Virus record (IMG/VR): IMGVR_UViG_2651869696_000012
From: a virus
Taxonomy: Duplodnaviria > Heunggongvirae > Uroviricota > Caudoviricetes
DNA length: 7,668 nt
Reading direction: 5' to 3' (one strand)
In this document: positions 121-7,668 of the stretch, in pieces
Position numbering within the stretch: position 1 is the stretch's first letter
Layout: each line of letters starts with the position of its first letter
Made by a program: the position numbers and the translations under genes
Notes under the pieces: model-generated
What the model saw: the letters and a program-made list of their open reading frames with translations, nothing else
What the model was told of the DNA's origin: nothing
Databases searched by the model: none

Positions 121-783
121 ATGTCAATTGAGTGTATTTTAATCGGGAAGCATCATGGGGGTTCTGATTACTGGAGAACTCCATTTTTGTTATTTAAGAA
201 CTTACACCGTGAATTTATTTTCAGTCTGGATGGTGCTGCAACTGAGCATGACGCATTGTTGCCACGGTTCACCGATGATATCCACAATCAGTCATGGGTT
301 GGTGAAAGGGTATTCTGTAACCCACCATACAGCGACACTAAAACATTCCTCGTAAAAGCATCTGAAGCAGATTTAGCGGTATTCCTGATGCCCTACCGAC
401 CCCAAACCATATACTGGCTTAAGCACATCTTCACAAACCTGCTTTGCCATGAAATCCGTATTCTTCATCGTGCAGTTAAATGCCTTCCACCAGCAGGGCA
501 TAACGGGCTTGTTATTCGTTCACCGTTTCCAAGTGCAGTCGTTGTTTTTAAAAAAGAACCACGTAAGCATGAAATTACACAGATGGTTTGCTGTGCTGAC
601 ACGCTATTACCGTTAACCATCATTAACCGTGGTGGACTAAGAGGAAGACCCACCATTTACCCACCTGAGACGCTCGACAGCTTCACAAAGCTATACAGGC
701 AAGGAAAACCCATTAAGTGCATTGCAGATGCTCTCAGAATGCCTCTGAGCACGTCATACAGGATTGCTCAAAGGTTGAGCTAA
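121..783 (+). CDS. Phage-type N6-adenine DNA methyltransferase (Dam family) with C-terminal Hin/resolvase-like HTH domain
   Basis: 220-aa ORF. N-terminal part has W-R-T-P near the N-terminus, FSLDGAAT, and the catalytic NPPY tetrapeptide (..VFCNPPYSD..), the pattern I recall for the phage Dam family (Pfam PF05869). The C-terminal ~45 aa (GRPTIYPPETLDSFTKLYRQGKPIKCIADALRMPLSTSYRIAQRL) aligns by eye with the Hin invertase HTH (GRP...G.P...iA......ST.YR). No Shine-Dalgarno before the ATG (AT-rich leader); first in-frame start after the stop at 103-105. Confidence 0.8.
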   Translation: MSIECILIGKHHGGSDYWRTPFLLFKNLHREFIFSLDGAATEHDALLPRFTDDIHNQSWVGERVFCNPPYSDTKTFLVKASEADLAVFLMPYRPQTIYWLKHIFTNLLCHEIRILHRAVKCLPPAGHNGLVIRSPFPSAVVVFKKEPRKHEITQMVCCADTLLPLTIINRGGLRGRPTIYPPETLDSFTKLYRQGKPIKCIADALRMPLSTSYRIAQRLS

Positions 784-831
784 AATTCTCATATAGAGCA
801 CTGATTATGAGAGTGTTAAAGAGGCGATTTC

Positions 832-851
832 CCCTGTCTGGGGTTATTCGC
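832..851. repeat. Copy 1 of a ~20-bp motif CCCTKTCTGGGGTTAT(T)CGC containing a short CCC/GGG hairpin
   Basis: cccctgtctggggttattcgc read directly; a second copy lies ~170 bp downstream (1001-1019). Confidence 0.5.
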
Positions 852-1000
852 TTTTTACTGGAAGGGTTATTTTACAGAGGTTTTTCAAACCCCCTCAATA
901 ATAGAAACGAGCAACAAACGAAGAGCGAGAAATAAAATATTGAGACTGGTGAACGGGGCCTGTAAAGATTGTTTAAGAAGTCGGTTAAGAAGGTGGCTCT

Positions 1001-1019
1001 CCCTTTCTGGGGTTATCGC
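1001..1019. repeat. Copy 2 of the CCCTKTCTGGGGTTATCGC motif
   Basis: ccctttctggggttatcgc; shares the TCTGGGGTTAT core with the copy at 832-851. Confidence 0.5.
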
Positions 1020-1048
1020 CCTGCATCTTAGTGAGTCCAGGAAGTTCT

Positions 1049-1220
1049 CTGTGAAGGGTCTTGTCAGTCCTTTATATTGGGTGATTACAACTCTTTGAAA
1101 AATAAGAACTTTTAGAAATCACTGTTAAGGTTACAGAGTTAACTGTGAAGAGGCTTGTCAGTTCTCTATATATGGCTAATTACAACTTATTGAAAAATAA
1201 GAACTTTTAGAAGTTACTGT
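1049..1220. repeat. Two tandem ~78-bp imperfect direct repeats (units 1049-1125 and 1143-1220) separated by 17 bp
   Basis: Unit 1 ctgtgaagggtcttgtcagtcctttatattgggtgattacaactctttgaaaaataagaacttttagaaatcactgt; unit 2 ctgtgaagaggcttgtcagttctctatatatggctaattacaacttattgaaaaataagaacttttagaagttactgt. Roughly 80-85% identical by eye. Each starts CTGTGAAG and ends ACTGT. Confidence 0.7.
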
Positions 1221-1302
1221 CAGAGAGGTGAACACTTGATAGATACAGCTTTCCGGTTATGTCAAGCTGTTTTTTAATAGATAGCACAAAATGCTAAAGA
1301 TG

Positions 1303-1331
1303 CCCCTATACCATCTCGTACAGGGGGTTTT
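1303..1331 (+). terminator. Candidate intrinsic terminator (possibly bidirectional)
   Basis: Stem cccctatac (1303-1311) / gtacagggg (1318-1326) with one mismatch, 6-nt loop, then GTTTT. Sits between the repeat region and the 3' end of the minus-strand small ORF. Confidence 0.4.
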
Positions 1332-1340
1332 GAAGGGAGT

Positions 1341-1517
1341 TTAACGGGGTTCTGTGTGGTCATTATCCTTAAGGTCAAGCGTCCATGTACGACCGAACAG
1401 TTTAAATACAACAAGCACTCTGACGAGGATGTAGCGGAGTATCAGACCTGCAATCAGCCCAACACCTCCACCAGCCCATACATCAGGTGACCCCAGTTCA
1501 GGAGGGAGATTTACCAT
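1341..1517 (-). CDS. Hypothetical small membrane protein (58 aa from the internal Met; the track ORF extends to 1586)
   Basis: Minus-strand ORF with a hydrophobic segment (GGVGLIAGLILRYILVRVLVVF). The Met at 1515-1517 is preceded on the minus strand by AAGGA with a 6-nt spacer; the upstream Met at 1586 has no SD and lies inside repeat R1. It is the only minus-strand candidate and is locally GC-richer, so it could be spurious. Confidence 0.3.
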   Translation of the reverse strand: MVNLPPELGSPDVWAGGGVGLIAGLILRYILVRVLVVFKLFGRTWTLDLKDNDHTEPR

Positions 1518-1532
1518 TAGTTTTCCTTGTAA

Positions 1533-1629
1533 GACGCTTTCAATCGCATTCTGACACAAAAAAGTACCTGACCTTATAGTTGACATGAAGAGGCCGTTTA
1601 ACTCGTTACAGAGCGATTGAAGAAGTCTG
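1533..1629. repeat. R1: ~97-bp element with ~20-bp terminal inverted repeats; copy 1 of 2
   Basis: Left arm gacgctttcaatcgcattctgacacaaaaaa, variable core, right arm gtttaactcgttacagagcgattgaagaagtctg. Left arm and reverse complement of right arm match (GACgCTtTCAATCGC..TCTG vs GACttCTTCAATCGCTCTG). Second copy at 3200-3320. Confidence 0.7.
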
Positions 1630-1765
1630 TGTGCAATGCAAAAACCATGCGGCCATTCTCATGGTTGATTCGGTTTATCGAATAAACCTCATAGCCACGC
1701 CTCATATTTTACTCTCCCCATAGAACCATTATACCACAGATGTTAATGAAATGTTAAAAAAATGC

Positions 1766-1806
1766 TTGACATTAGTCTTTGAAAATGCTAGCATTGCCTA
1801 TATAAG
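1766..1806 (+). promoter_or_regulatory. Sigma70-like promoter region for the four-gene cassette (two overlapping candidate configurations)
   Basis: TTGACA (1766-1771), 17-bp spacer, extended -10 TGcTAGCAT (1786-1794); alternatively TTGAAA (1779-1784), 16 bp, TATAAG (1801-1806). A-rich tract immediately upstream (1745-1763) resembles an UP element. First gene starts at 1845. Confidence 0.45.
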
Positions 1807-1844
1807 TTAACAGAGAATTAACAATTATAAGGACTAGCTTATGA

Positions 1845-2402
1845 ATGAACGACAGAGAATTTAGAGCGATGCTTCAGGCATCAAGAGAACGCAACAAGCA
1901 CAACTCCTACAGCTACACAGACACCCCCACCAGCCACGAAGTACCCAAGTTCACCAGAGCAGAGCGCAAAGGCATTGACGAAGTAATTCGGGCAATTACA
2001 CCGAGGGAGCGTTATATGTCAATCAGAAAGAGCACGAAGAACACTATCAAGAATTATTTGAATAACTTTGATTCTTACGAGCAGTCATCAAGCTTGCTTG
2101 ATGATATTTTTATTGGATTCTGTAGAAGTGAAGGTCACCCGAAATACAACAAAAAACTATTTTATCTTCTAAAGAATCTTGATGAAATTAACGCAGCCAG
2201 CGTGACAAATTATCTTCAGCGACAAGCAACCAGACTTAGTTATGAATTACCAAGCGATAAATATTGTGCATTGCTTGCTGTAATGTGTGCAAAGCTAATT
2301 GGTGTTGTTGAACATCATGTTGCCGTTGGGAATATTGAACCAATGGAAAACGAGCAACCAGATTTCGAGTTTGACCCGTATTTAGTTACAGAGGAATTTT
2401 AA
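1845..2402 (+). CDS. Hypothetical protein (185 aa) with acidic C-terminal tail
   Basis: ORF with AAGGA 11 nt upstream; first gene of a translationally coupled cassette; C-terminus ..ENEQPDFEFDPYLVTEEF. No family recognised. Confidence 0.7.
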   Translation: MNDREFRAMLQASRERNKHNSYSYTDTPTSHEVPKFTRAERKGIDEVIRAITPRERYMSIRKSTKNTIKNYLNNFDSYEQSSSLLDDIFIGFCRSEGHPKYNKKLFYLLKNLDEINAASVTNYLQRQATRLSYELPSDKYCALLAVMCAKLIGVVEHHVAVGNIEPMENEQPDFEFDPYLVTEEF

Positions 2403-2403
2403 A

Positions 2404-2685
2404 ATGAAAAACAGACACACTCTAACCCGTATTTCAGAGGAAGCTTTTAATGAGCTTACCAGAATTAAACGAGCGACTAACTTGCCTCATCAAACTGTTA
2501 TGCAACTTGCAATTGCTAAAGAAGTTACTGAGTCGGATTTACTTAAATATCCAGTCTCTAAAGGTCGCAAACACATCCGAATTGCTCAGGACGCTTTAGA
2601 TACTTTGAAGGCACTTAACAGCTTTAAAATTGATATTGCCCGACTATTGAGTATTAAGATTCACAAGTTAGCGATGGAGGTTTAA
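2404..2685 (+). CDS. Putative ribbon-helix-helix-like DNA-binding protein (93 aa)
   Basis: GAGG 9 nt upstream (inside the TTACAGAGG motif). N-terminus NRHTLTRISEEAFNELTRIKRATNLPHQTVMQLAIAKEV fits the beta-strand / helix A / turn / helix B pattern of CopG/Arc-type RHH proteins; assignment by pattern only. Confidence 0.65.
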   Translation: MKNRHTLTRISEEAFNELTRIKRATNLPHQTVMQLAIAKEVTESDLLKYPVSKGRKHIRIAQDALDTLKALNSFKIDIARLLSIKIHKLAMEV

Positions 2686-2900
2686 TGCTATGCGTTACCT
2701 TTGAATACCACACGGATAAAATGATTCGCTACATCTCCGACCTCCTGATTAAAGGAAACGGATTCGGTGACATCCATAACTCAAGAGATATTTTCATTAA
2801 AGCCATTGGCCCAAATGAAGTACTGAAAACAGCAGTTACACCGGAATGGTTTGAGCGTCACAAGATTGAATTAGGTTATTGGGGTGAGGAGGTTTTATGA
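2685..2900 (+). CDS. Hypothetical protein (71 aa)
   Basis: Start overlaps upstream stop (TAATG); GGAGG 4 nt upstream; no recognisable family. Confidence 0.6.
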   Translation: MLCVTFEYHTDKMIRYISDLLIKGNGFGDIHNSRDIFIKAIGPNEVLKTAVTPEWFERHKIELGYWGEEVL

Positions 2901-3184
2901 AACCTTGGCATGAAGATGTTAGACGATATTTTACAGAACACCTTATCTATGATGAATCCAGTGATTCCCTGTGCTGGTCTGATGGAGAGTCAGTCACGAT
3001 AAATACCGACGACTACGGCAACAAAACATTTAATATAGGCCGATATACTTTCTACGTGAAATATGTTGTCTGGTTCCTTTATCATGGCTATCAATCCAAT
3101 AAGCAAATTATCCATCGAAATGGTAACAGAGCCGATACCAGACCAAAAAATCTTATGCAAGTCCGAGACTTTAAGAGAAATTAG
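2897..3184 (+). CDS. Small HNH-type (HNH_3-like) endonuclease-fold protein, apparently degenerate
   Basis: ATGA overlap with upstream gene; GAGGAGG 4 nt upstream. Sequence ..IYDESSDSLCW..GNKTF..YTFYVKYVVWFLYHGYQSNKQIIHRNGNRADTRPKNLMQV follows the architecture of phage HNH proteins (YDPETG..W ... HRLAW ... DHIDGN..NN...NLR) but with substitutions at usually conserved positions (HRL to KYV; DNR/NN to DT). Confidence 0.7.
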   Translation: MKPWHEDVRRYFTEHLIYDESSDSLCWSDGESVTINTDDYGNKTFNIGRYTFYVKYVVWFLYHGYQSNKQIIHRNGNRADTRPKNLMQVRDFKRN

Positions 3185-3199
3185 AAAAATAGCTTCTCA

Positions 3200-3320
3200 G
3201 ACGCTCTCAATCGCATTCTAACGCAAAAAACTATCTTATTTTAGGGTGGGTAATACCACTGTACAGGCTACCCCTGAAAAAGACTGTTTAGCTCGTTACA
3301 GAGCGATTGAGGAGGTCTGG
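3200..3320. repeat. R2: ~121-bp element with ~20-bp terminal inverted repeats; copy 2 of 2
   Basis: Left arm gacgctctcaatcgcattctaacgcaaaaaa, 55-bp variable core, right arm gtttagctcgttacagagcgattgaggaggtctgg. Same arms as R1 at 1533-1629 with a different, longer core. Immediately after the cassette stop (3184) and 20 bp before the next gene. Confidence 0.7.
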
Positions 3321-3340
3321 TAAAAAGGAGATTTTAAGAA

Positions 3341-3670
3341 ATGAGAGAATTAAACTTTCCATTACAAATTATGCTTGATATCGACACAGTAAATATGATT
3401 CAACACTTCGTTGATTCCGGTGTATCAATTGACTTTGACAGGCTGTTAAAGCTGATGGCTGATAATGCAGAAAACATCTCTGACTTTATTCAGTCGGTGG
3501 AGTTTAACGAGCCTCGAATGATGCTACCAATTACCGACTCAAACATGAAAAGATTGGTTATCGAGCAAACGAACAAACACAGTATTTCCCCAGAGCAATT
3601 TTTGAAAGGTGCTGTGACAATCCTGCACAGCGATAATATTCTGGTGACGGATTCTATGAGGGTTCACTAA
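3341..3670 (+). CDS. Hypothetical acidic protein (109 aa)
   Basis: AAGGAG 10 nt upstream; Asp/Glu-rich; no recognisable family. Confidence 0.7.
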   Translation: MRELNFPLQIMLDIDTVNMIQHFVDSGVSIDFDRLLKLMADNAENISDFIQSVEFNEPRMMLPITDSNMKRLVIEQTNKHSISPEQFLKGAVTILHSDNILVTDSMRVH

Positions 3671-3747
3671 TGGGATTGATAATTGCTTGGACAGCTTTAG
3701 GTTTATTTGTTGGTTGCTGGGTGGGCAACGCGGTAAATAAAAATTGA
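3670..3747 (+). CDS. Candidate 25-aa single-pass hydrophobic peptide (MGLIIAWTALGLFVGCWVGNAVNKN)
   Basis: ATG at 3670-3672 overlaps the TAA of the upstream gene (TAATG coupling); stop TGA at 3745-3747. Below the ORF-track cutoff; hydrophobic core with polar C-terminus. Confidence 0.3.
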   Translation: MGLIIAWTALGLFVGCWVGNAVNKN

Positions 3748-3771
3748 TGTTACCAATCTGTTAAAAGGCTG

Positions 3772-3800
3772 TTGACAAATAATCTTAAGCATGACATAAT
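3772..3800 (+). promoter_or_regulatory. Sigma70-like promoter
   Basis: TTGACA (3772-3777), 17-bp spacer, CATAAT (3795-3800); AT-rich upstream. Confidence 0.5.
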
Positions 3801-3806
3801 TGTATA

Positions 3807-3998
3807 TATAGGAAGAGCAATTTTTCCTAAAATCATATTTTCAATAATCCGATGGATGGATATTCTGAGTTGGAAAGGTGCAATGCTTTTCGTCATGGCC
3901 TTTCAGTTTAGTCTGAGAGGTCATCTCAAAAAGTGCTTAATCATTCATTATTGAACCCTTACAGCTTTGCCCTAACTCATGATTAGGGCGTTTTCTTT
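3807..3998 (+). ncRNA. Candidate small RNA (~190 nt) between the promoter and an intrinsic terminator
   Basis: No ORF with an RBS in this unit (the 60-aa track ORF starts inside the -35 box). Internal 12-bp stem ATGGCCTTTCAG (3895-3906) / CTGAGAGGTCAT (3913-3924) with a 6-nt loop; its two non-Watson-Crick positions are G-U wobbles only in the + strand RNA. Ends at the terminator at 3969-3998. Coordinates approximate. Confidence 0.3.
3969..3998 (+). terminator. Intrinsic terminator
   Basis: Stem gccctaa (3969-3975) / ttagggc (3983-3989), 7-nt loop, followed by gTTTTCTTT. Confidence 0.6.
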
Positions 3999-4067
3999 AA
4001 GAGTTTTTAAACAGAGCTTTTAAAGAAAGTTTTTCCTGAAACTTCGTTAACGTTAAAGCAAACCTTC

Positions 4068-4101
4068 AAAGCCCTTCACAGATTATGTTTAGGGCTTTTT
4101 T
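4068..4101 (+). terminator. Second candidate intrinsic terminator
   Basis: aaagccct (4068-4075) / agggcttt (4091-4098) with a 15-nt loop, followed by a T run to 4101. Loop is large, so lower confidence. Confidence 0.45.
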
Positions 4102-4218
4102 CAGCTTTTAAAAAGCATACTTGGCAAACGCCTTTTAAGTCTCTTCTAAGTTCGTAGGCTGTCAGGTGTGCTTTTTAAAAACTGAAACATAAATTATCTT
4201 AGAAGAGGAAAAATAATA

Positions 4219-4923
4219 ATGTCTATCCGTGATGAACATGAAATGATTATCGAAAACAAACCAAGTGCACTTGATATTCACGAATTAAGTTTGCGTGAAT
4301 CTTTTGATAGAGCTTGGCGGGAATCACACGAAGTAAATAAAGGTCCATATATTCCACCAGAACCACTCGAGATTCCAAGAGTTGAAATTGATTTTTCGAT
4401 GAATGAGGAATGTGAGCTTGATTTGAAACTGAAGCTGCAACGCCGATATTTCCAAGCTATTAAAGACTCTCAAGAAGCAATGAGAAGTGTTTACGAGAAA
4501 ATTCAGTCCAAGCTTGAAGACGAAATCGACGAAATGGCTATTTTGATGGAGCTTCAAACCAATTCTTATGCTTATTTCTCTCGACTAGACCGTGACGGTT
4601 GGGGGTATGACCCTGTAGAGATTGGTAAAGTGATTGCAGATTTACCAGAAGGTCAAAGGGTTATTCGTACGGAAAGGGCTATCAGAGCGCCACATCAACT
4701 GTCTCTAATTGTTGCTGATAAATCACAAGCTGAGCTTGAAGAAATTGCCAAAGAGAAACTGATGAAAGCAAGAGAAAATGAGATTAATTTGCTGAAATCA
4801 AGACTGGCTAAGCTGATTAGTGACCATCAAGCGCTGGCTAAGGAGTACCGTCAAGAGTTGGCACAGATTATCAGCTTCAATGATTTTCTGAGTGTTCCAC
4901 GAGAATTTAGCAAGGCTGTTTAA
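4219..4923 (+). CDS. Hypothetical glutamate-rich, probably helical/coiled-coil protein (234 aa)
   Basis: GAGG 10 nt upstream; long charged helical-looking stretches (..AELEEIAKEKLMKARENEINLLKSRLAKLISDHQALAKEYRQELAQ..); no recognisable family. Confidence 0.75.
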   Translation: MSIRDEHEMIIENKPSALDIHELSLRESFDRAWRESHEVNKGPYIPPEPLEIPRVEIDFSMNEECELDLKLKLQRRYFQAIKDSQEAMRSVYEKIQSKLEDEIDEMAILMELQTNSYAYFSRLDRDGWGYDPVEIGKVIADLPEGQRVIRTERAIRAPHQLSLIVADKSQAELEEIAKEKLMKARENEINLLKSRLAKLISDHQALAKEYRQELAQIISFNDFLSVPREFSKAV

Positions 4924-5161: not shown

Positions 5162-5210
5162 AAAAGATTGGTTGGGTGTATGAGATAGGTTCTATCGAAT
5201 CTATAACACG

Positions 5211-5252
5211 GGGAGAGATTATCGATATTATTCGGTAGTTTCTCCCTTTTTT
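5211..5252 (+). terminator. Candidate intrinsic terminator after the 71-aa gene
   Basis: Stem gggagaga (5211-5218) / tttctccc (5239-5246), one G-U, 20-nt loop, followed by TTTTTT (5247-5252). Confidence 0.5.
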
Positions 5253-5260
5253 GTATGTGT

Positions 5261-5330
5261 GCTACGTGAAATCTTCTGAACAGATATACCCACCAAAAAT
5301 TATTTTTTACGTAGCTCACGCTTAACAGAG
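5261..5330. repeat. Repeat A: 70-bp element directly upstream of the tape-measure-like gene; copy 1 of 2
   Basis: gctacgtgaaatcttctgaacagatatacccaccaaaaattattttttacgtagctcacgcttaacagag. Contains inverted repeat GCTACGT...ACGTAGC and ends in TTAACAGAG, followed by the SD GAGGTGA. Second copy at 7406-7475. Confidence 0.7.
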
Positions 5331-5344
5331 GTGAAATATGAACA

Positions 5345-7393
5345 ATGGCACAATTTAAAGTTGATAGTTTTATCGTTGAGCTAGGCTTCAATGAAAACGT
5401 TATTAAGAGCTTGCAAAGAGTTGAAAAGGCAGCTTTGCAGTCAGCACAAAGAATTGAAAAGAACCTTAACAAAGGCTTCAAGATTAATACCAAGCAACTT
5501 GACAGCAATCTGACAAGTTCTTTGAAGTCAATGGAAGGAAAAATTAATAAGACCTTTGACCGTCTGGAAGCTAGAGCAAGAAACACAAAAGTTTTCCGTT
5601 TCACAAGTCAGGTTAACGATGCTGTTAATCCTCCAAAACAACCGAGACAGCCACGAATTAGCGGCAACAGAGCAATCACAGCAGCTTATTCAGCTAATAT
5701 GTCTAAGTTAAAGGGCTTTGACCCTATTTTGCAGAAATACATCAAATCTCAGTTTTACGGGCTATCTGCTAAAGCCGGTTCAATGGATTCTTCAAAATTC
5801 AATGAGAAGCTGTCTCAGTTAAATGCTTCAGTCAGAGAAGCAATTGCTAAAGCTAAAGGTCATACATCCACCAGCATTAATGGTGACAGAGCAGCTAGCA
5901 GCCTTGATAACCTGTCTTCGGCAGCAGTCAAAACAGCAGGTGCATTTATCTCAATGCAGGCTGTATTAGCCAGTTATCAGAAGATTATGGAAGTTGGTTT
6001 ACAGCGTGCAAGTGCTGAGCGTTCAATTGATTTCGTATTTGATAAAGATGCAGGTCAGGTAAAAGAGTTCACAAAGTCATTAGCTCAAACAACGGGTTTA
6101 GATATCGCTGAACTGCAATCACAGTTTGCTGGTTTTGGTGCTTCAGCTAAAGAATCTATGGGTATTCAGGGTTCTGAAGAACTTTTTAAAAATATGATTG
6201 GCTATTCTCGTTTAATGGGTCGAAGTGAAGAAGAGATTAAGCGAGCATTAACAGCGCTATCGCAGATGGCTGGTAAGGGTCAGGTGATGGCTGAGGAGCT
6301 GAAAGGTCAATTAGCTGAAGCTGTTCCTGGTATGGTTCAGGTATTCGCTAAAGCAACCGGAAAGACTGAACAGGAATTATTTGATGCCATGAAGAAGGGG
6401 GCTTTAAAATCTGCCGATACTCTTCAGAAGGTCACTCAGGAACTGAATAAACAAATCACCGCTAAAGGTGGCTGGAAAGCCATTTCAGAAAGTACACAGG
6501 CACAACTAGGGAACTTGAAAAACTCTTGGAATACCACGCTTGACAGTATTTTCAGAGGTTCTGAAGATGGTTTACAGGACTTCACAAGAAGCTTAACAAC
6601 GCTTTTAAATAGTCTTGGTGGGAGTGGTAAAAGTCTTGGTGAATCTCTTGGTAGTCTCATGACTTCTATGTCAAGTGGTGTGGATTCATTGACTGATATC
6701 AGCTACAGGGTAAGAGCATTCTTTGATGAGGTGACATTAGCTTACCGTGGTTTAACCGATGAACAAAAGAAAGTAGTTGATGCTTTAGGTTCTGGCTTGA
6801 TTAATAGTTTAAAAGTCTTGGCTGGTGTTATTGCTGTGAATAAAGTTGTTGGTGTAACCAGAAGTATTTACGGGCTTATGACTGCTATCACAAGATTAGG
6901 TCAGGTTGCTGATACTACAGCGGATAACGTGAATAGAAAGAATGGGAAACCATCAAGACTGAATCTTGGGAATATGCTATTAGCTGGTAGCGCTCTCTAT
7001 GCAGGTTATGAAAGATTAGCCTCTACACCTGAACGAATGGAAGCACAAGCTAAATTACCAGAGTTAGCTAAAGAATCTGGACTTAAGCCAGTATTTACTA
7101 TGGACGATGTGAAAGGTTGGTTTAATAGTGCAGCTATGAATCTTGCTAACTTCCAGCATCCAGAATTAAACAACATTAAGCAAGATGCGGCATTAACGAA
7201 TACGGATATCCAAAGCCTGAGAGATGAAATTAGTGCTTTGAGCAAACGTATTCAGGAGCCTGTGAAAGTTTCACTTGGTGGTGAAGTTGCTATTAAACCA
7301 GATGAAACCAGCTTTATGACATTTAACAGCAGTCTGTACGACCAATACGCAGAAGCTACGCTATTAAGTTCATCATTCCCAGAAGATGATTGA
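5345..7393 (+). CDS. Tape-measure-domain protein (682 aa)
   Basis: Long ORF with GAGGTGA 11 nt upstream. Central region ..RALTALSQMAGKGQVMAEELKGQLAEAVPGMVQVFAKATGKTEQELFDAMKKGALKSADTLQKV.. matches, as I recall it, the conserved tape-measure domain of lambda-H-like proteins (TIGR02675-type). Gly/Ser/Ala/Lys-rich with hydrophobic segments (..LAGVIAVNKVVGV..). Short for a classical tape measure and lacks adjacent tail genes. Confidence 0.8.
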   Translation: MAQFKVDSFIVELGFNENVIKSLQRVEKAALQSAQRIEKNLNKGFKINTKQLDSNLTSSLKSMEGKINKTFDRLEARARNTKVFRFTSQVNDAVNPPKQPRQPRISGNRAITAAYSANMSKLKGFDPILQKYIKSQFYGLSAKAGSMDSSKFNEKLSQLNASVREAIAKAKGHTSTSINGDRAASSLDNLSSAAVKTAGAFISMQAVLASYQKIMEVGLQRASAERSIDFVFDKDAGQVKEFTKSLAQTTGLDIAELQSQFAGFGASAKESMGIQGSEELFKNMIGYSRLMGRSEEEIKRALTALSQMAGKGQVMAEELKGQLAEAVPGMVQVFAKATGKTEQELFDAMKKGALKSADTLQKVTQELNKQITAKGGWKAISESTQAQLGNLKNSWNTTLDSIFRGSEDGLQDFTRSLTTLLNSLGGSGKSLGESLGSLMTSMSSGVDSLTDISYRVRAFFDEVTLAYRGLTDEQKKVVDALGSGLINSLKVLAGVIAVNKVVGVTRSIYGLMTAITRLGQVADTTADNVNRKNGKPSRLNLGNMLLAGSALYAGYERLASTPERMEAQAKLPELAKESGLKPVFTMDDVKGWFNSAAMNLANFQHPELNNIKQDAALTNTDIQSLRDEISALSKRIQEPVKVSLGGEVAIKPDETSFMTFNSSLYDQYAEATLLSSSFPEDD

Positions 7394-7405
7394 TAATAGT
7401 CGAAT

Positions 7406-7475
7406 GCTACGTGAAATCTCTTGAACAGATATACCCACTGAAAAATAGAATTTACGTACAACACGCTTAACAGAG
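7406..7475. repeat. Repeat B: second copy of the 70-bp element, directly downstream of the tape-measure-like gene
   Basis: gctacgtgaaatctcttgaacagatatacccactgaaaaatagaatttacgtacaacacgcttaacagag; about 85% identical to copy A by eye; same length and same TTAACAGAG 3' end. Confidence 0.7.
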
Positions 7476-7533: not shown

Positions 7534-7668
7534 AATCAAAGGAGAATTTAATGATTTACACTAATCAGCTTCGGGTGATGCTGCCAACTTACTGATTTAG
7601 TGTATGATGGTGTTTTTGAGGTGCTCCAGTGGCTTCTGTTTCTATCAGCTGTCCCTCCTGTTCAGCTA

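What the first reader, a model, noticed from the sequence alone, without database searches (positions are those of the whole stretch)
1533..3320. Four-gene cassette bracketed by two copies of an inverted-repeat element (R1/R2)
R1 (1533-1629) and R2 (3200-3320) share ~30-bp left and right arms that are inverted repeats of each other (GACGCTYTCAATCGCATTCT... / ...AGAGCGATTGARGARGTC) around a variable core of 32 vs 55 bp. They sit directly upstream and directly downstream of the cassette 1845-3184 (unknown 185 aa, RHH-like, unknown 71 aa, HNH-like). This resembles miniature inverted-repeat elements or the repeated promoter/stem-loop linker sequences that flank exchangeable gene modules in some phages; it could equally be a structured cis-regulatory RNA (the right arm ends in a GAGGAGG SD-like sequence). 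I cannot match it to a named element.
Basis: partly seen in the sequence, partly recalled or inferred. Interest (0 to 1): 0.7.

Follow-up and report, generated by a model that had tools for sequence, protein, structure and literature searches.

The report
Conserved hairpin repeat in phage-related island
R1 and R2 are two copies of a roughly 110-135 base hairpin-forming repeat found only in one small phage-related island of Escherichia, where it marks the joints between swappable gene blocks and probably acts as an RNA stem-loop, so it does not frame a mobile four-gene cassette.

Summary
The repeat is real. R1 (1526-1634) and R2 (3191-3323) share both arms, and the arms are inverted repeats.

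The "bracketed cassette" reading does not hold.
- The window is part of an 11-13 kb serine-integrase island present in about 10% of complete E. coli chromosomes.
- Across 82 related loci, 113 copies of the element occupy only three fixed intergenic sites. One of these, site A, lies outside the window and is inverted. None occurs elsewhere in the genomes.
- R2 is almost always present. It folds into a long hairpin (-44 to -48 kcal/mol, z -3.3 to -5.9). Together with the ribosome-binding site and start codon of the next gene, it forms a block of about 150 nt that is about 95-100% conserved, while the genes on either side are swapped or only 40-85% identical.
- R1 is a shorter, weakly folding, optional copy. 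It lies beyond a divergent promoter pair, in the leader of a leftward 58-aa membrane-protein gene.
- The HNH gene is an optional insert.

Best reading: a conserved intergenic stem-loop "linker", transcribed with its neighbours. It probably acts in RNA processing, stability or translation, and it serves as the homology patch at which modules are exchanged. The mechanism is inferred, not shown.

The island itself carries tail genes related to Felix-O1-like phages and looks undescribed.

The parts
1526..1634 (+). R1: short (109 nt) 'site B' copy of the repeat. It is optional among islands.
   Evidence: nhmmer E 4.8e-27. It is a clean presence/absence polymorphism. It folds weakly on the + strand (z -0.4) and better on the - strand (z -1.9).
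3191..3323 (+). R2: full-length (133 nt) 'site C' master copy, a long imperfect hairpin.
   Evidence: nhmmer E 3.7e-39. MFE -47.8 kcal/mol, z -5.9, with 0 of 200 shuffles as stable. Full-length copies are present in 338 E. coli genomes.
3195..3344 (+). Ultra-conserved block: R2 plus the spacer, Shine-Dalgarno site (AAGGAG) and ATG of the 109-aa gene.
   Evidence: Per-position conservation is 0.94-1.00 in 48 unique contexts, apart from one apical-loop allele and a few single positions at 0.64-0.91. It drops to 0.32 at 3345 and to 0.06-0.77 left of 3195.
1606..1613 (+). TTACAGAG octamer inside the R1 3' arm.
   Evidence: TWACAGAG occurs 9 times in the window, all on the + strand, against 0.58 expected.
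3296..3303 (+). TTACAGAG octamer inside the R2 3' arm. It is base-paired in the predicted hairpin.
   Evidence: Within CTCGTTACAGAGC, 10 of 13 columns are invariant and the other 3 nearly so in 41 long copies.
3165..3176 (+). Left copy of a 12-nt direct repeat (GAGACTTTAAGA) flanking R2.
   Evidence: 11/12 identical to 3328-3339. 11 of 2000 shuffles reach this.
3328..3339 (+). Right copy of the flanking direct repeat (GAGATTTTAAGA). It overlaps the Shine-Dalgarno region of the 109-aa gene.
1341..1517 (-). Leftward gene for a 58-aa hydrophobic protein. R1 lies in its predicted 5' leader.
   Evidence: 30 alleles; variable sites by codon position are 16/4/30. It is annotated as a CDS in L001.
1728..1794 (.). 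Back-to-back sigma-70-like promoters that separate R1 from the cassette.
   Evidence: Minus strand 1757->1728, 11/12 match. Plus strand 1766-1794, 10/12 match.
1845..2900 (+). Three conserved cassette genes (185, 93 and 71 aa), function unknown.
   Evidence: ORFs. No family or PDB match.
2897..3184 (+). HNH_3 endonuclease gene, an optional insertion between the 71-aa gene and R2.
   Evidence: PF13392, E 1.8e-8. Present in about half of the 59 site-C contexts; in the rest the 66-78 aa gene abuts R2.
3341..3670 (+). 109-aa gene downstream of R2. Its alleles are highly variable.
   Evidence: 40-86% nucleotide identity between islands. The low-confidence model shows two beta-alpha-alpha (RHH-like) units.

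Best explanation
R1 and R2 are copies of an island-specific imperfect palindrome of about 110-135 nt. It belongs to a small mosaic serine-integrase island of Escherichia.

R2 is the functional master copy. It is transcribed from the promoter at 1766-1794 as part of the operon that runs from the 185-aa gene through the 109-aa gene. In the RNA it forms a long stem-loop directly in front of the translation start of the 109-aa gene.

I infer that it works as an RNA punctuation element, in one or more of these ways:
- as a double-stranded processing site (RNase III type);
- as a decay barrier that uncouples the fate of upstream and downstream messages;
- as a structure that shapes expression of the 109-aa gene.

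Because it is the one stretch kept nearly identical between islands, it is also where homologous recombination swaps the neighbouring gene modules.

R1 is a truncated, degenerate derivative. It was inserted into the leader of the divergent 58-aa membrane-protein gene, where the strand that is transcribed is the one that folds better.

Shown: the copies, their sites, the fold stability, the conservation pattern and the module swapping. Inferred: transcription through R2, and the processing, stability or translation role.
For: 1. Distribution. 113 copies in 82 loci fall in three fixed intergenic sites only. There are none elsewhere in 5426 E. coli genomes apart from 30-nt partial hits. In a scan of species-representative genomes, only E. 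albertii carries it outside E. coli.
2. Fold. Every long variant folds far better than shuffled sequence: z -5.9, -5.3, -4.7, -4.0, -3.3/-4.4.
3. Pairing. 90.8% of cells are paired against 86.7% in shuffles (0/500) and 33-49% in slid controls. Five pairs are compensated between the two main sequence variants. One C-G to U-A change occurs in the L127 allele.
4. Conservation. R2 plus the Shine-Dalgarno site and ATG is conserved at 0.94-1.00 with sharp edges (one apical-loop allele aside). The 109-aa gene is 40-86% identical, and the upstream gene is HNH, or absent, or a 35-38% identical relative.
5. Module swapping. Each upstream type is found with each downstream allele class, so modules have been re-assorted across R2.
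6. Transcription. No + strand promoter-like site lies within or after R2, and there is no terminator-like T-run after it. Read-through from upstream is therefore the simplest route to the 109-aa gene.
7. Strand asymmetry. Site-B copies fold better on the island's minus strand (-33.0 vs -27.4 kcal/mol, 29 of 30), which is the strand of the 58-aa gene leader. Inverted site-A copies fold better on the island's plus strand (9 of 11).
8. Precedent. Comparable palindromic intergenic repeats act through RNase III or RNase E on co-transcribed messages (Correia, ERIC: PMC2649163, PMC2229807). Conserved stem-loop linkers mediate module shuffling in T4-like phages (PMC4122927).
Against: - There are no transcript data; transcription and processing are entirely inferred.
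- Covariation is weak. Only 7 pairs change on both sides (161 of 500 shuffles do as well), and 5 of them trace to a single split between the two variants.
- Arm-swap chimeras show compensation in one direction only.
- The two variants pair in different registers.
- Near-total sequence identity, loops included, is more than a hairpin should need. It could reflect recent spread or gene conversion rather than selection.
- R2 folds equally well on both strands.
- The element works in either orientation at the DNA level, and one allele has a flipped apex. Both points fit a DNA palindrome as well.
- Predicted sequestration of the Shine-Dalgarno site by the base of the hairpin is inconsistent between alleles.
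Confidence: 0.45

Rival explanations
1. A selfish, MITE-like palindromic insertion with no function. It was copied a few times within and between islands and has been partly lost again through hairpin-promoted deletion.
For: - Clean presence/absence at site B, flanked by a 3-nt repeat TGT.
- Clean presence/absence at site A, flanked by an imperfect 9-15 nt direct repeat.
- R2 is flanked by an 11/12 direct repeat.
- Copies occur in both orientations.
- Site-A copies carry the sequence variant that sits at site C in a divergent island lineage. This suggests transfer of the element as a unit.
Against: - Only three sites are ever occupied, and there are no copies outside the island in 5426 genomes.
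- The ends of the copies are ragged rather than defined termini.
- No transposase with matching ends was found. The IS1 in the window is unrelated.
- R2 is essentially never lost and ranks among the best-conserved stretches of the island. Neutral junk would not behave this way.
Confidence: 0.2
2. A DNA-level site. The palindrome extrudes as a cruciform or folds in single-stranded DNA and serves island replication, packaging or recombination. It could be a target of the HNH nuclease, of one of the two serine recombinases, or of a helper-phage protein.
For: - The element occurs in both orientations.
- There are up to three copies per island.
- One allele has a flipped apex, as expected from arm-arm recombination.
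- Both strands of R2 fold equally well.
- It sits next to HNH in half the islands.
- The island looks like a phage satellite that would need cis sites.
- A related hairpin arm occurs in small mobilisable plasmids.
Against: - HNH is optional while R2 is not.
- No inversion between the inverted A and C copies, and no deletion between the direct B and C copies, is seen in 82 loci.
- Conservation extends seamlessly into the Shine-Dalgarno site and start codon of the next gene. This points to an expression signal.
- The associated octamer is strictly strand-specific and co-oriented with transcription.
Confidence: 0.15
3. A transcriptional insulator or terminator-type hairpin that stops read-through or antisense transcription between modules.
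For: - It is a very stable hairpin between genes.
- On the minus strand, R2 is followed 8 nt later by a T-rich run (AGCTATTTTTCTAATTT; read).
- At site A, other islands carry canonical terminator-like hairpins in the same spot.
Against: - No T-run directly follows the stem on the + strand, and the consensus scan does not call it.
- The terminators at site A face the other way from the repeat copy.
- The 109-aa gene has no promoter of its own after R2, so full termination there would silence it.
Confidence: 0.12
4. One reading: R1 and R2 are paired recombination or boundary sites that make the four genes a mobile or exchangeable cassette, in the manner of integron attC sites.
For: R1 and R2 are direct repeats on either side of the genes. 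The gene content next to R2 does vary.
Against: - The cassette is intact in islands that lack R1.
- R1 lies beyond the cassette's promoter, in another gene's leader.
- No hybrid R or empty site is found among 113 copies.
- The cassette never occurs outside the island or on plasmids.
- There is no integron integrase, and by inspection no attC core motifs.
Confidence: 0.03

Closest known systems
PeSL (promoter-early stem-loop) linkers of T4-like phages (Arbiol 2010; Comeau 2014, PMC4122927)
   Same: Both are short, conserved intergenic stem-loop units repeated within one mobile genome. Both sit at the borders of variable genes and serve as points of exchange between otherwise unrelated sequences.
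   Different: PeSLs combine an early sigma-70 promoter with a terminator stem-loop and occur at high density. R2 has no predicted + strand promoter and no T-run. There are only 1-3 copies. The hairpin is much longer (~60-nt arms). The host element is a chromosomal island, not a T4-like phage.
ERIC / IRU 127-bp imperfect palindromes of enterobacteria (PMC2229807)
   Same: They are similar in size, are imperfect palindromes, lie between genes, are co-transcribed and occur in both orientations. ERICs modulate the stability of flanking messages in an orientation-dependent way.
   Different: There is no sequence relationship. ERICs are dispersed in many chromosomal copies, whereas R is confined to three sites of one island family.
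Correia / NEMIS (CREE) elements of Neisseria (PMC2649163, PMC2229807)
   Same: Both are elements of 100-155 bp with inverted-repeat arms. Transcripts of Correia elements form long hairpins that RNase III binds or cleaves. Both show insertion polymorphism between strains.
   Different: CREE has defined 24-bp terminal repeats, a TA target duplication, an IHF site and outward promoters, and hundreds of copies. R has none of these.
Intergenic RNase III processing hairpins of phage T7 and the lambda N leader (textbook knowledge, not tested here)
   Same: Both are related stem-loops with internal loops, repeated between genes of a polycistronic message and placed just upstream of translation starts.
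   Different: Cleavage is demonstrated for T7 and lambda. For R it is only inferred from about 23 paired positions in the lower stem.
Integron attC sites
   Same: Both are imperfect inverted repeats of 57-141 bp with a variable centre, lying next to gene cassettes and folding as single strands.
   Different: There is no IntI integrase and no R''/R' core motifs. The 'cassette' has its own promoter and several genes. No cassette excision or shuffling products are seen.

Membership tests
MITE (ERIC / Correia type) | Terminal inverted repeats | tested here: met
   The arms are inverted repeats (16 nt, 81% complementary in R1; CAGAC...GTCTG plus a 10-bp stem in R2). They are hairpin arms rather than defined termini.
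MITE (ERIC / Correia type) | Target-site duplication of fixed length | tested here: inconclusive
   Site B has a 3-nt TGT repeat. Site A has an imperfect 9-15 nt repeat. Site C has an 11/12 repeat. The lengths differ and the element ends are ragged.
MITE (ERIC / Correia type) | Many dispersed copies in the host genome | tested here: not met
   Only three fixed sites in the island are occupied. There are no full copies elsewhere in 5426 E. coli genomes.
MITE (ERIC / Correia type) | A parent transposase or IS with matching ends | tested here: not met
   None was found in the island. The IS1 end at 7573 is unrelated.
PeSL linker | Sigma-70 early promoter inside the unit | tested here: not met
   There is no + strand promoter-like site in R2. 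R1 has a 10/12 match (CTGACA-18-TATAGT), but its -10 element is not conserved among alleles.
PeSL linker | Stem-loop terminator | tested here: inconclusive
   The stem-loop is present and strong, but no T-run follows it and the scan does not call it.
PeSL linker | Lies at the junction of exchanged or indel modules | tested here: met
   R2 is conserved while its flanks are unrelated or 40-86% identical. The upstream and downstream types are re-assorted.
Integron attC | Adjacent IntI tyrosine integrase and R''/R' core sites | tested here: not met
   The island's recombinases are serine type. By inspection, the arm ends carry no RYYYAAC/GTTRRRY motifs.
Intrinsic terminator | GC-rich stem directly followed by a T-run | tested here: not met
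   Neither R1 nor R2 is among the 7 terminator-like sites. No T-run follows on the + strand.
Any Rfam RNA family | Match to a curated covariance model | tested here: not met
   No hit at E <= 1 over R1 or R2.
RNase III processing site | About two turns of double-stranded RNA | tested here: met
   The lower stem of R2 has 6+10+2+5 pairs interrupted by small internal loops.
RNase III processing site | Cleavage by RNase III | not testable with these tools
   This needs in vitro cleavage or an rnc mutant.

The most novel reading that the evidence does not exclude
The island is an undescribed satellite, or tail-interference element, of Felix-O1-like virulent phages in Escherichia. On this reading the R hairpins, together with the strand-specific octamer UWACAGAG that they carry, are its cis-acting control or mobilisation signals. 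Examples would be a helper-responsive RNA switch, or a packaging or replication site read by an island- or phage-encoded factor. They would not be a generic stem-loop.
Probability: 0.15. Interest if true: 0.7.

Novelty: new member of a known kind. Interest (0 to 1): 0.4.

Why it matters
On its own, the element adds one more example to the class of conserved palindromic intergenic linkers. It is an unusually clean example. A 150-nt block stays nearly identical while the genes on both sides are replaced, which makes it a good natural case for testing how such linkers drive module exchange and gene expression.

The wider value lies in the host element. It is a small island, common in E. coli (~10% of complete genomes), that carries a tape-measure gene and a distal-tail gene related to Felixounavirus. 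Its non-coding signals are better conserved than its proteins. If it proves to be a satellite or defence island against Felix-O1-like phages, which are used in phage therapy and typing, then R2 and the TWACAGAG motif are the obvious handles for dissecting its regulation.

Tried and rejected
1. Sakai SpLE2. I first recalled the island as this element and rejected the idea. Only about 9 O157-type genomes carry it, and SpLE2 is listed next to sbcB (PMC3519850).
2. TWACAGAG as a helper-phage promoter. In Felixounavirus EC6 the motif occurs 18 times against 9.1 expected, on both strands and mostly inside genes. This is not supported.
3. Similarity to known phages. There is none for 780-4220 even in sensitive mode, and none on plasmids.
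4. boxA/nut-like or LexA-box readings of the arms. The resemblance is on the wrong strand or has the wrong spacing, judged by inspection only, so I dropped it.
5. Sequestration of the 109-aa gene's Shine-Dalgarno site by the hairpin base. The mean pairing probability is 0.64, but the partners are inconsistent across 55 contexts. I did not rely on it.
6. Reciprocal arm-swap test for co-evolution. Compensation appears in one direction only.
7. Within-variant covariation. Changes are mostly one-sided.
8. Search for more distant islands to find a non-homologous hairpin at the same position. The viral-contig scan with an alignment of the 71-aa family returned only the same contigs. The genome scan found only E. 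albertii.
9. Structure prediction of the 93-aa and 109-aa proteins. pLDDT was 55 and 60, too low for fold searches. There are no PDB sequence relatives, and the two proteins are not detectably related to each other.
10. Defence-system and NCBIfam scans of the cassette proteins gave nothing beyond an orphan methyltransferase.
Full report

Yes. The repeat finder pairs 1526-1576 with 3193-3243 (80% over 51 nt) and 1588-1629 with 3278-3319 (86% over 42 nt). It also finds the arm-arm inverted repeat 1532-1547 / 1613-1628 (81% complementary). R1 lacks about 23 nt at the apex relative to R2. A profile built from the copies places them at 1526-1634 and 3191-3323. No Rfam family matches either copy at E <= 1.

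**Where the window comes from**

- The window has no DNA relative among 50,697 phage records or 72,556 plasmids, apart from an IS1 end at 7573-7668.
- It matches chromosomes of 528 of 5426 complete E. coli genomes at mostly 80-95% identity.
- In annotated genomes it is part of an 11-13 kb island inserted in yecE. A divergent lineage sits between yciI and tonB.
- The island is bounded by a 507-aa large serine integrase. At the other end it usually carries a 182-aa resolvase/invertase-type recombinase.
- Its gene order is: a Dam-like methyltransferase fused to a resolvase-type HTH; the leftward 58-aa gene; the cassette; the 109-aa gene; a long non-coding stretch; 234-aa and 71-aa genes; a tape-measure protein; and a Dit-like tail protein.
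- I first thought this was Sakai SpLE2. That is wrong.

**How many copies, and where**

I scanned one genome per species (only E. albertii gave real hits) and the metagenome collection with a gapped arm pattern. Adding viral contigs and annotated genomes, a profile search found 113 copies in 82 loci, 75 of them distinct.

Mapping the flanks to a reference island shows that every copy lies at one of three sites:

| Site | Position | Form |
|---|---|---|
| A | Between the small recombinase gene and the methyltransferase gene | Full-length, inverted relative to the others; about 10 loci; not in this window |
| B | R1 position | Short form; present in some islands and absent in others |
| C | R2 position | Full-length; present in essentially all islands |

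A sensitive search of all E. coli genomes with R2 alone finds full copies only in these islands. It also finds 30-nt partial matches in a few small plasmids. No copy has hybrid flanks. So there is no sign of deletion between R1 and R2, or of inversion between A and C.

**R1 does not flank the cassette**

- R1 ends at 1634 and the first cassette gene starts at 1845.
- Between them lie two strong back-to-back promoter-like sites: minus strand 1757->1728 (11/12 with TG) and plus strand 1766-1794 (10/12).
- To the left of R1, starting at 1517, is a leftward 58-aa hydrophobic ORF. It is a real gene: among 30 alleles, variable sites fall 16/4/30 by codon position.
- R1 is therefore in that gene's predicted leader, just upstream of its ribosome-binding site.
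- R1 is a clean indel. Empty alleles read TAAATTTCC|TGT where filled ones read TAAATTTCCT[TGT]AAGACGC...GGTC[TGT].
- The cassette is intact in islands without R1.

**The cassette is three genes plus an optional HNH**

Upstream of R2, about half of 59 contexts have the 95-aa HNH_3 gene. In the others a 66-aa homologue of the 71-aa gene, or a 35-38% identical 69-78 aa relative (identities), abuts R2 directly. HNH therefore behaves as a free-standing nuclease gene inserted next to R2.

**Structure**

- R2 folds into one long hairpin: -47.8 kcal/mol, z -5.9, with 0 of 200 shuffles as stable. Its reverse complement is similar (z -5.5).
- Other alleles do the same. An apical-loop allele gives z -5.3. 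An allele whose apical ~32 nt are flipped gives z -4.7. The second main variant (V2) gives z -3.3 to -4.4.
- V2 occurs at site A, and at site C of the yciI-tonB lineage. Its left arm pairs with CGTTACAGAGC itself rather than with GCGATTGAGGAG.
- R1-type copies fold weakly on the + strand (z -0.4 to -1.3) and better on the - strand (z -1.8 to -2.8).
- On 41 distinct long copies with the R2 structure, 90.8% of cells pair, against 86.7% in shuffles (0/500) and 33-49% when partners are slid.
- Only 7 pairs change on both sides (161/500 shuffles do as well), and five of these are the single V1/V2 split.
- Arm-swap chimeras lose about 15 kcal/mol in one direction and gain in the other.
- Overall, a long hairpin is clearly maintained, but classical covariation support is modest.

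**Conservation**

This is the most telling result.

- Against the window, R2 is 97-100% identical in most islands. In the same islands the 109-aa gene is 40-86% identical, and the upstream 300 nt are either about 96-100% identical (HNH present) or unrelated.
- In 48 unique contexts, per-position conservation is 0.94-1.00 from 3195 to 3344, apart from one apical-loop allele and a few single positions (0.64-0.91). This block is R2 plus the spacer, the AAGGAG Shine-Dalgarno site and the ATG. Conservation falls to 0.32 four bases into the coding sequence and to 0.06-0.77 left of 3195.
- Each upstream type is found with each class of downstream allele, so the modules have been re-assorted across this block.
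- Other non-coding stretches of the island are also better conserved than its genes.

**Strand and motif clues**

- Site-B copies fold 5.6 kcal/mol better on the island's minus strand (29 of 30). That is the strand of the 58-aa gene leader.
- Inverted site-A copies fold 3 kcal/mol better on the island's plus strand (9 of 11). Site-C copies show no preference.
- The copies within each class are closely related, so this amounts to two weak observations in favour of an RNA role.
- The octamer TWACAGAG, which sits in the 3' arm of every copy, occurs 9 times in the window, all on the + strand, against 0.58 expected.
- It shows the same strand bias in other islands: 8:1, 8:3, 6:1 and 9:1.
- It lies near translation starts at 1808, 2386, 5323 and 7468. 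It is not a recognisable Felixounavirus signal.

**Origin of the copies**

- R2 is flanked by an 11/12 direct repeat, GAGAYTTTAAGA (p about 0.006 in local shuffles).
- Site-A copies are flanked by an imperfect 9-15 nt repeat. They occupy a spot where other islands carry unrelated terminator-like hairpins.
- Site-A copies carry the V2 sequence that sits at site C in the divergent lineage.
- The element has therefore been inserted as a unit at least twice. But its ends are ragged, it has only three sites, and it has no cognate transposase. It is not a working MITE.

**Interpretation**

The descriptive conclusions are firm:
- the element is an island-specific hairpin repeat at three fixed sites;
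- R2 is the constrained master copy, fused to the downstream translation start;
- R1 is an optional degenerate copy in another gene's leader;
- the cassette is not a bracketed unit.

The mechanism is inferred. I favour an RNA stem-loop that punctuates the operon, through processing, stability or translation of the 109-aa gene. The same conserved block doubles as the homology patch for module exchange. My confidence in this is about 0.45. The rivals are a selfish palindromic insertion (0.2), a DNA-level cis site (0.15), an insulator or terminator (0.12), and the cassette-bracketing model (0.03).

**Comparison with known systems**

It works most like PeSL linkers of T4-like phages (PMC4122927) and like ERIC or Correia palindromes that act on co-transcribed messages (PMC2229807, PMC2649163). 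It fails defining features of each: there is no internal promoter, no T-run, no dispersed copies, no defined termini and no sequence similarity. It is best filed as a new member of the general class of conserved palindromic intergenic linkers.

Noticed in passing
window 5345-7393; L001 27305-28078: The island's tape-measure protein is 29% identical over its full length to Felixounavirus tape-measure proteins. Its Dit-like protein is about 76% identical to the gene that follows the tape-measure gene in those phages. No paper describing this island as a satellite or defence element was found. It looks like an undescribed element aimed at Felix-O1-like phages, and it is present in about 10% of complete E. 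coli genomes.
   Followed up: partly
window 872, 1131, 1606, 1808, 2386, 3124, 3296, 5323, 7468: The octamer TWACAGAG occurs 9 times, all on the + strand, against 0.58 expected. The same strand bias is seen in other islands. Its function is unknown. It is not enriched between genes in Felixounavirus EC6.
   Followed up: partly
window 5260-5330 and 7405-7475: A second repeat pair (85% over 71 nt). Each copy is a hairpin (GCTACGTGAAA...TTTTACGTAGC) followed by CACGCTTAACAGAG. The copies lie just upstream of the tape-measure gene and of the Dit-like gene. The first copy follows a canonical terminator at 5210-5247.
   Followed up: no
window 3772-4187: A strong promoter-like site (TTGACA-17-CATAAT with TG) is followed by terminator-like hairpins at 3968-3990 and about 4068-4100, and by a 28-nt-arm hairpin at 4099-4187. 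This could be a candidate small RNA or a long leader. This non-coding stretch is mostly 92-96% conserved while neighbouring genes are 68-85% conserved.
   Followed up: no
window 1341-1517 (- strand) and 1551-1580 (+ strand): The 58-aa hydrophobic protein gene is conserved. The core of R1 holds a + strand promoter-like site, CTGACA-18-TATAGT. It would produce an RNA antisense to that gene's leader, a layout reminiscent of type I toxin-antitoxin pairs. The -10 element is not well conserved among R1 alleles.
   Followed up: partly
window 7551-7668: The Dit-like gene starts at 7551 and is cut after 22 nt by an IS1 end at 7573. This copy of the island is damaged.
   Followed up: partly
window 121-783: The Dam-like N6-adenine methyltransferase carries a C-terminal resolvase-type helix-turn-helix (HTH_7, below the Pfam cut-off). 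This is an unusual fusion.
   Followed up: no
window 1043-1220; 815-847 / 984-1016: A tandem repeat with a 95-nt period (83-88% identity) and another 33-nt repeat pair lie in the non-coding region between the methyltransferase gene and the 58-aa gene.
   Followed up: no
L012 about 17826-17838 (island coordinate 10827): An exact 13-nt match to the R right arm (TTACAGAGCGATT) lies inside the large serine integrase gene on its antisense strand. It is conserved in other islands. It may be chance (E 0.003 in that small search) or a pairing target.
   Followed up: partly
L140 192-223 (NZ_CP159215 5494-5525): 30 of 32 nt of the R left arm recur in small mobilisable E. coli plasmids. There the sequence is also one arm of a hairpin (TTCTGACGC A6 ... 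A6 CGCGTCAGAA). The meaning is unknown.
   Followed up: partly
L127 685-818: One R2 allele has its apical ~32 nt reverse-complemented relative to all others, while the stem is kept.
   Followed up: partly
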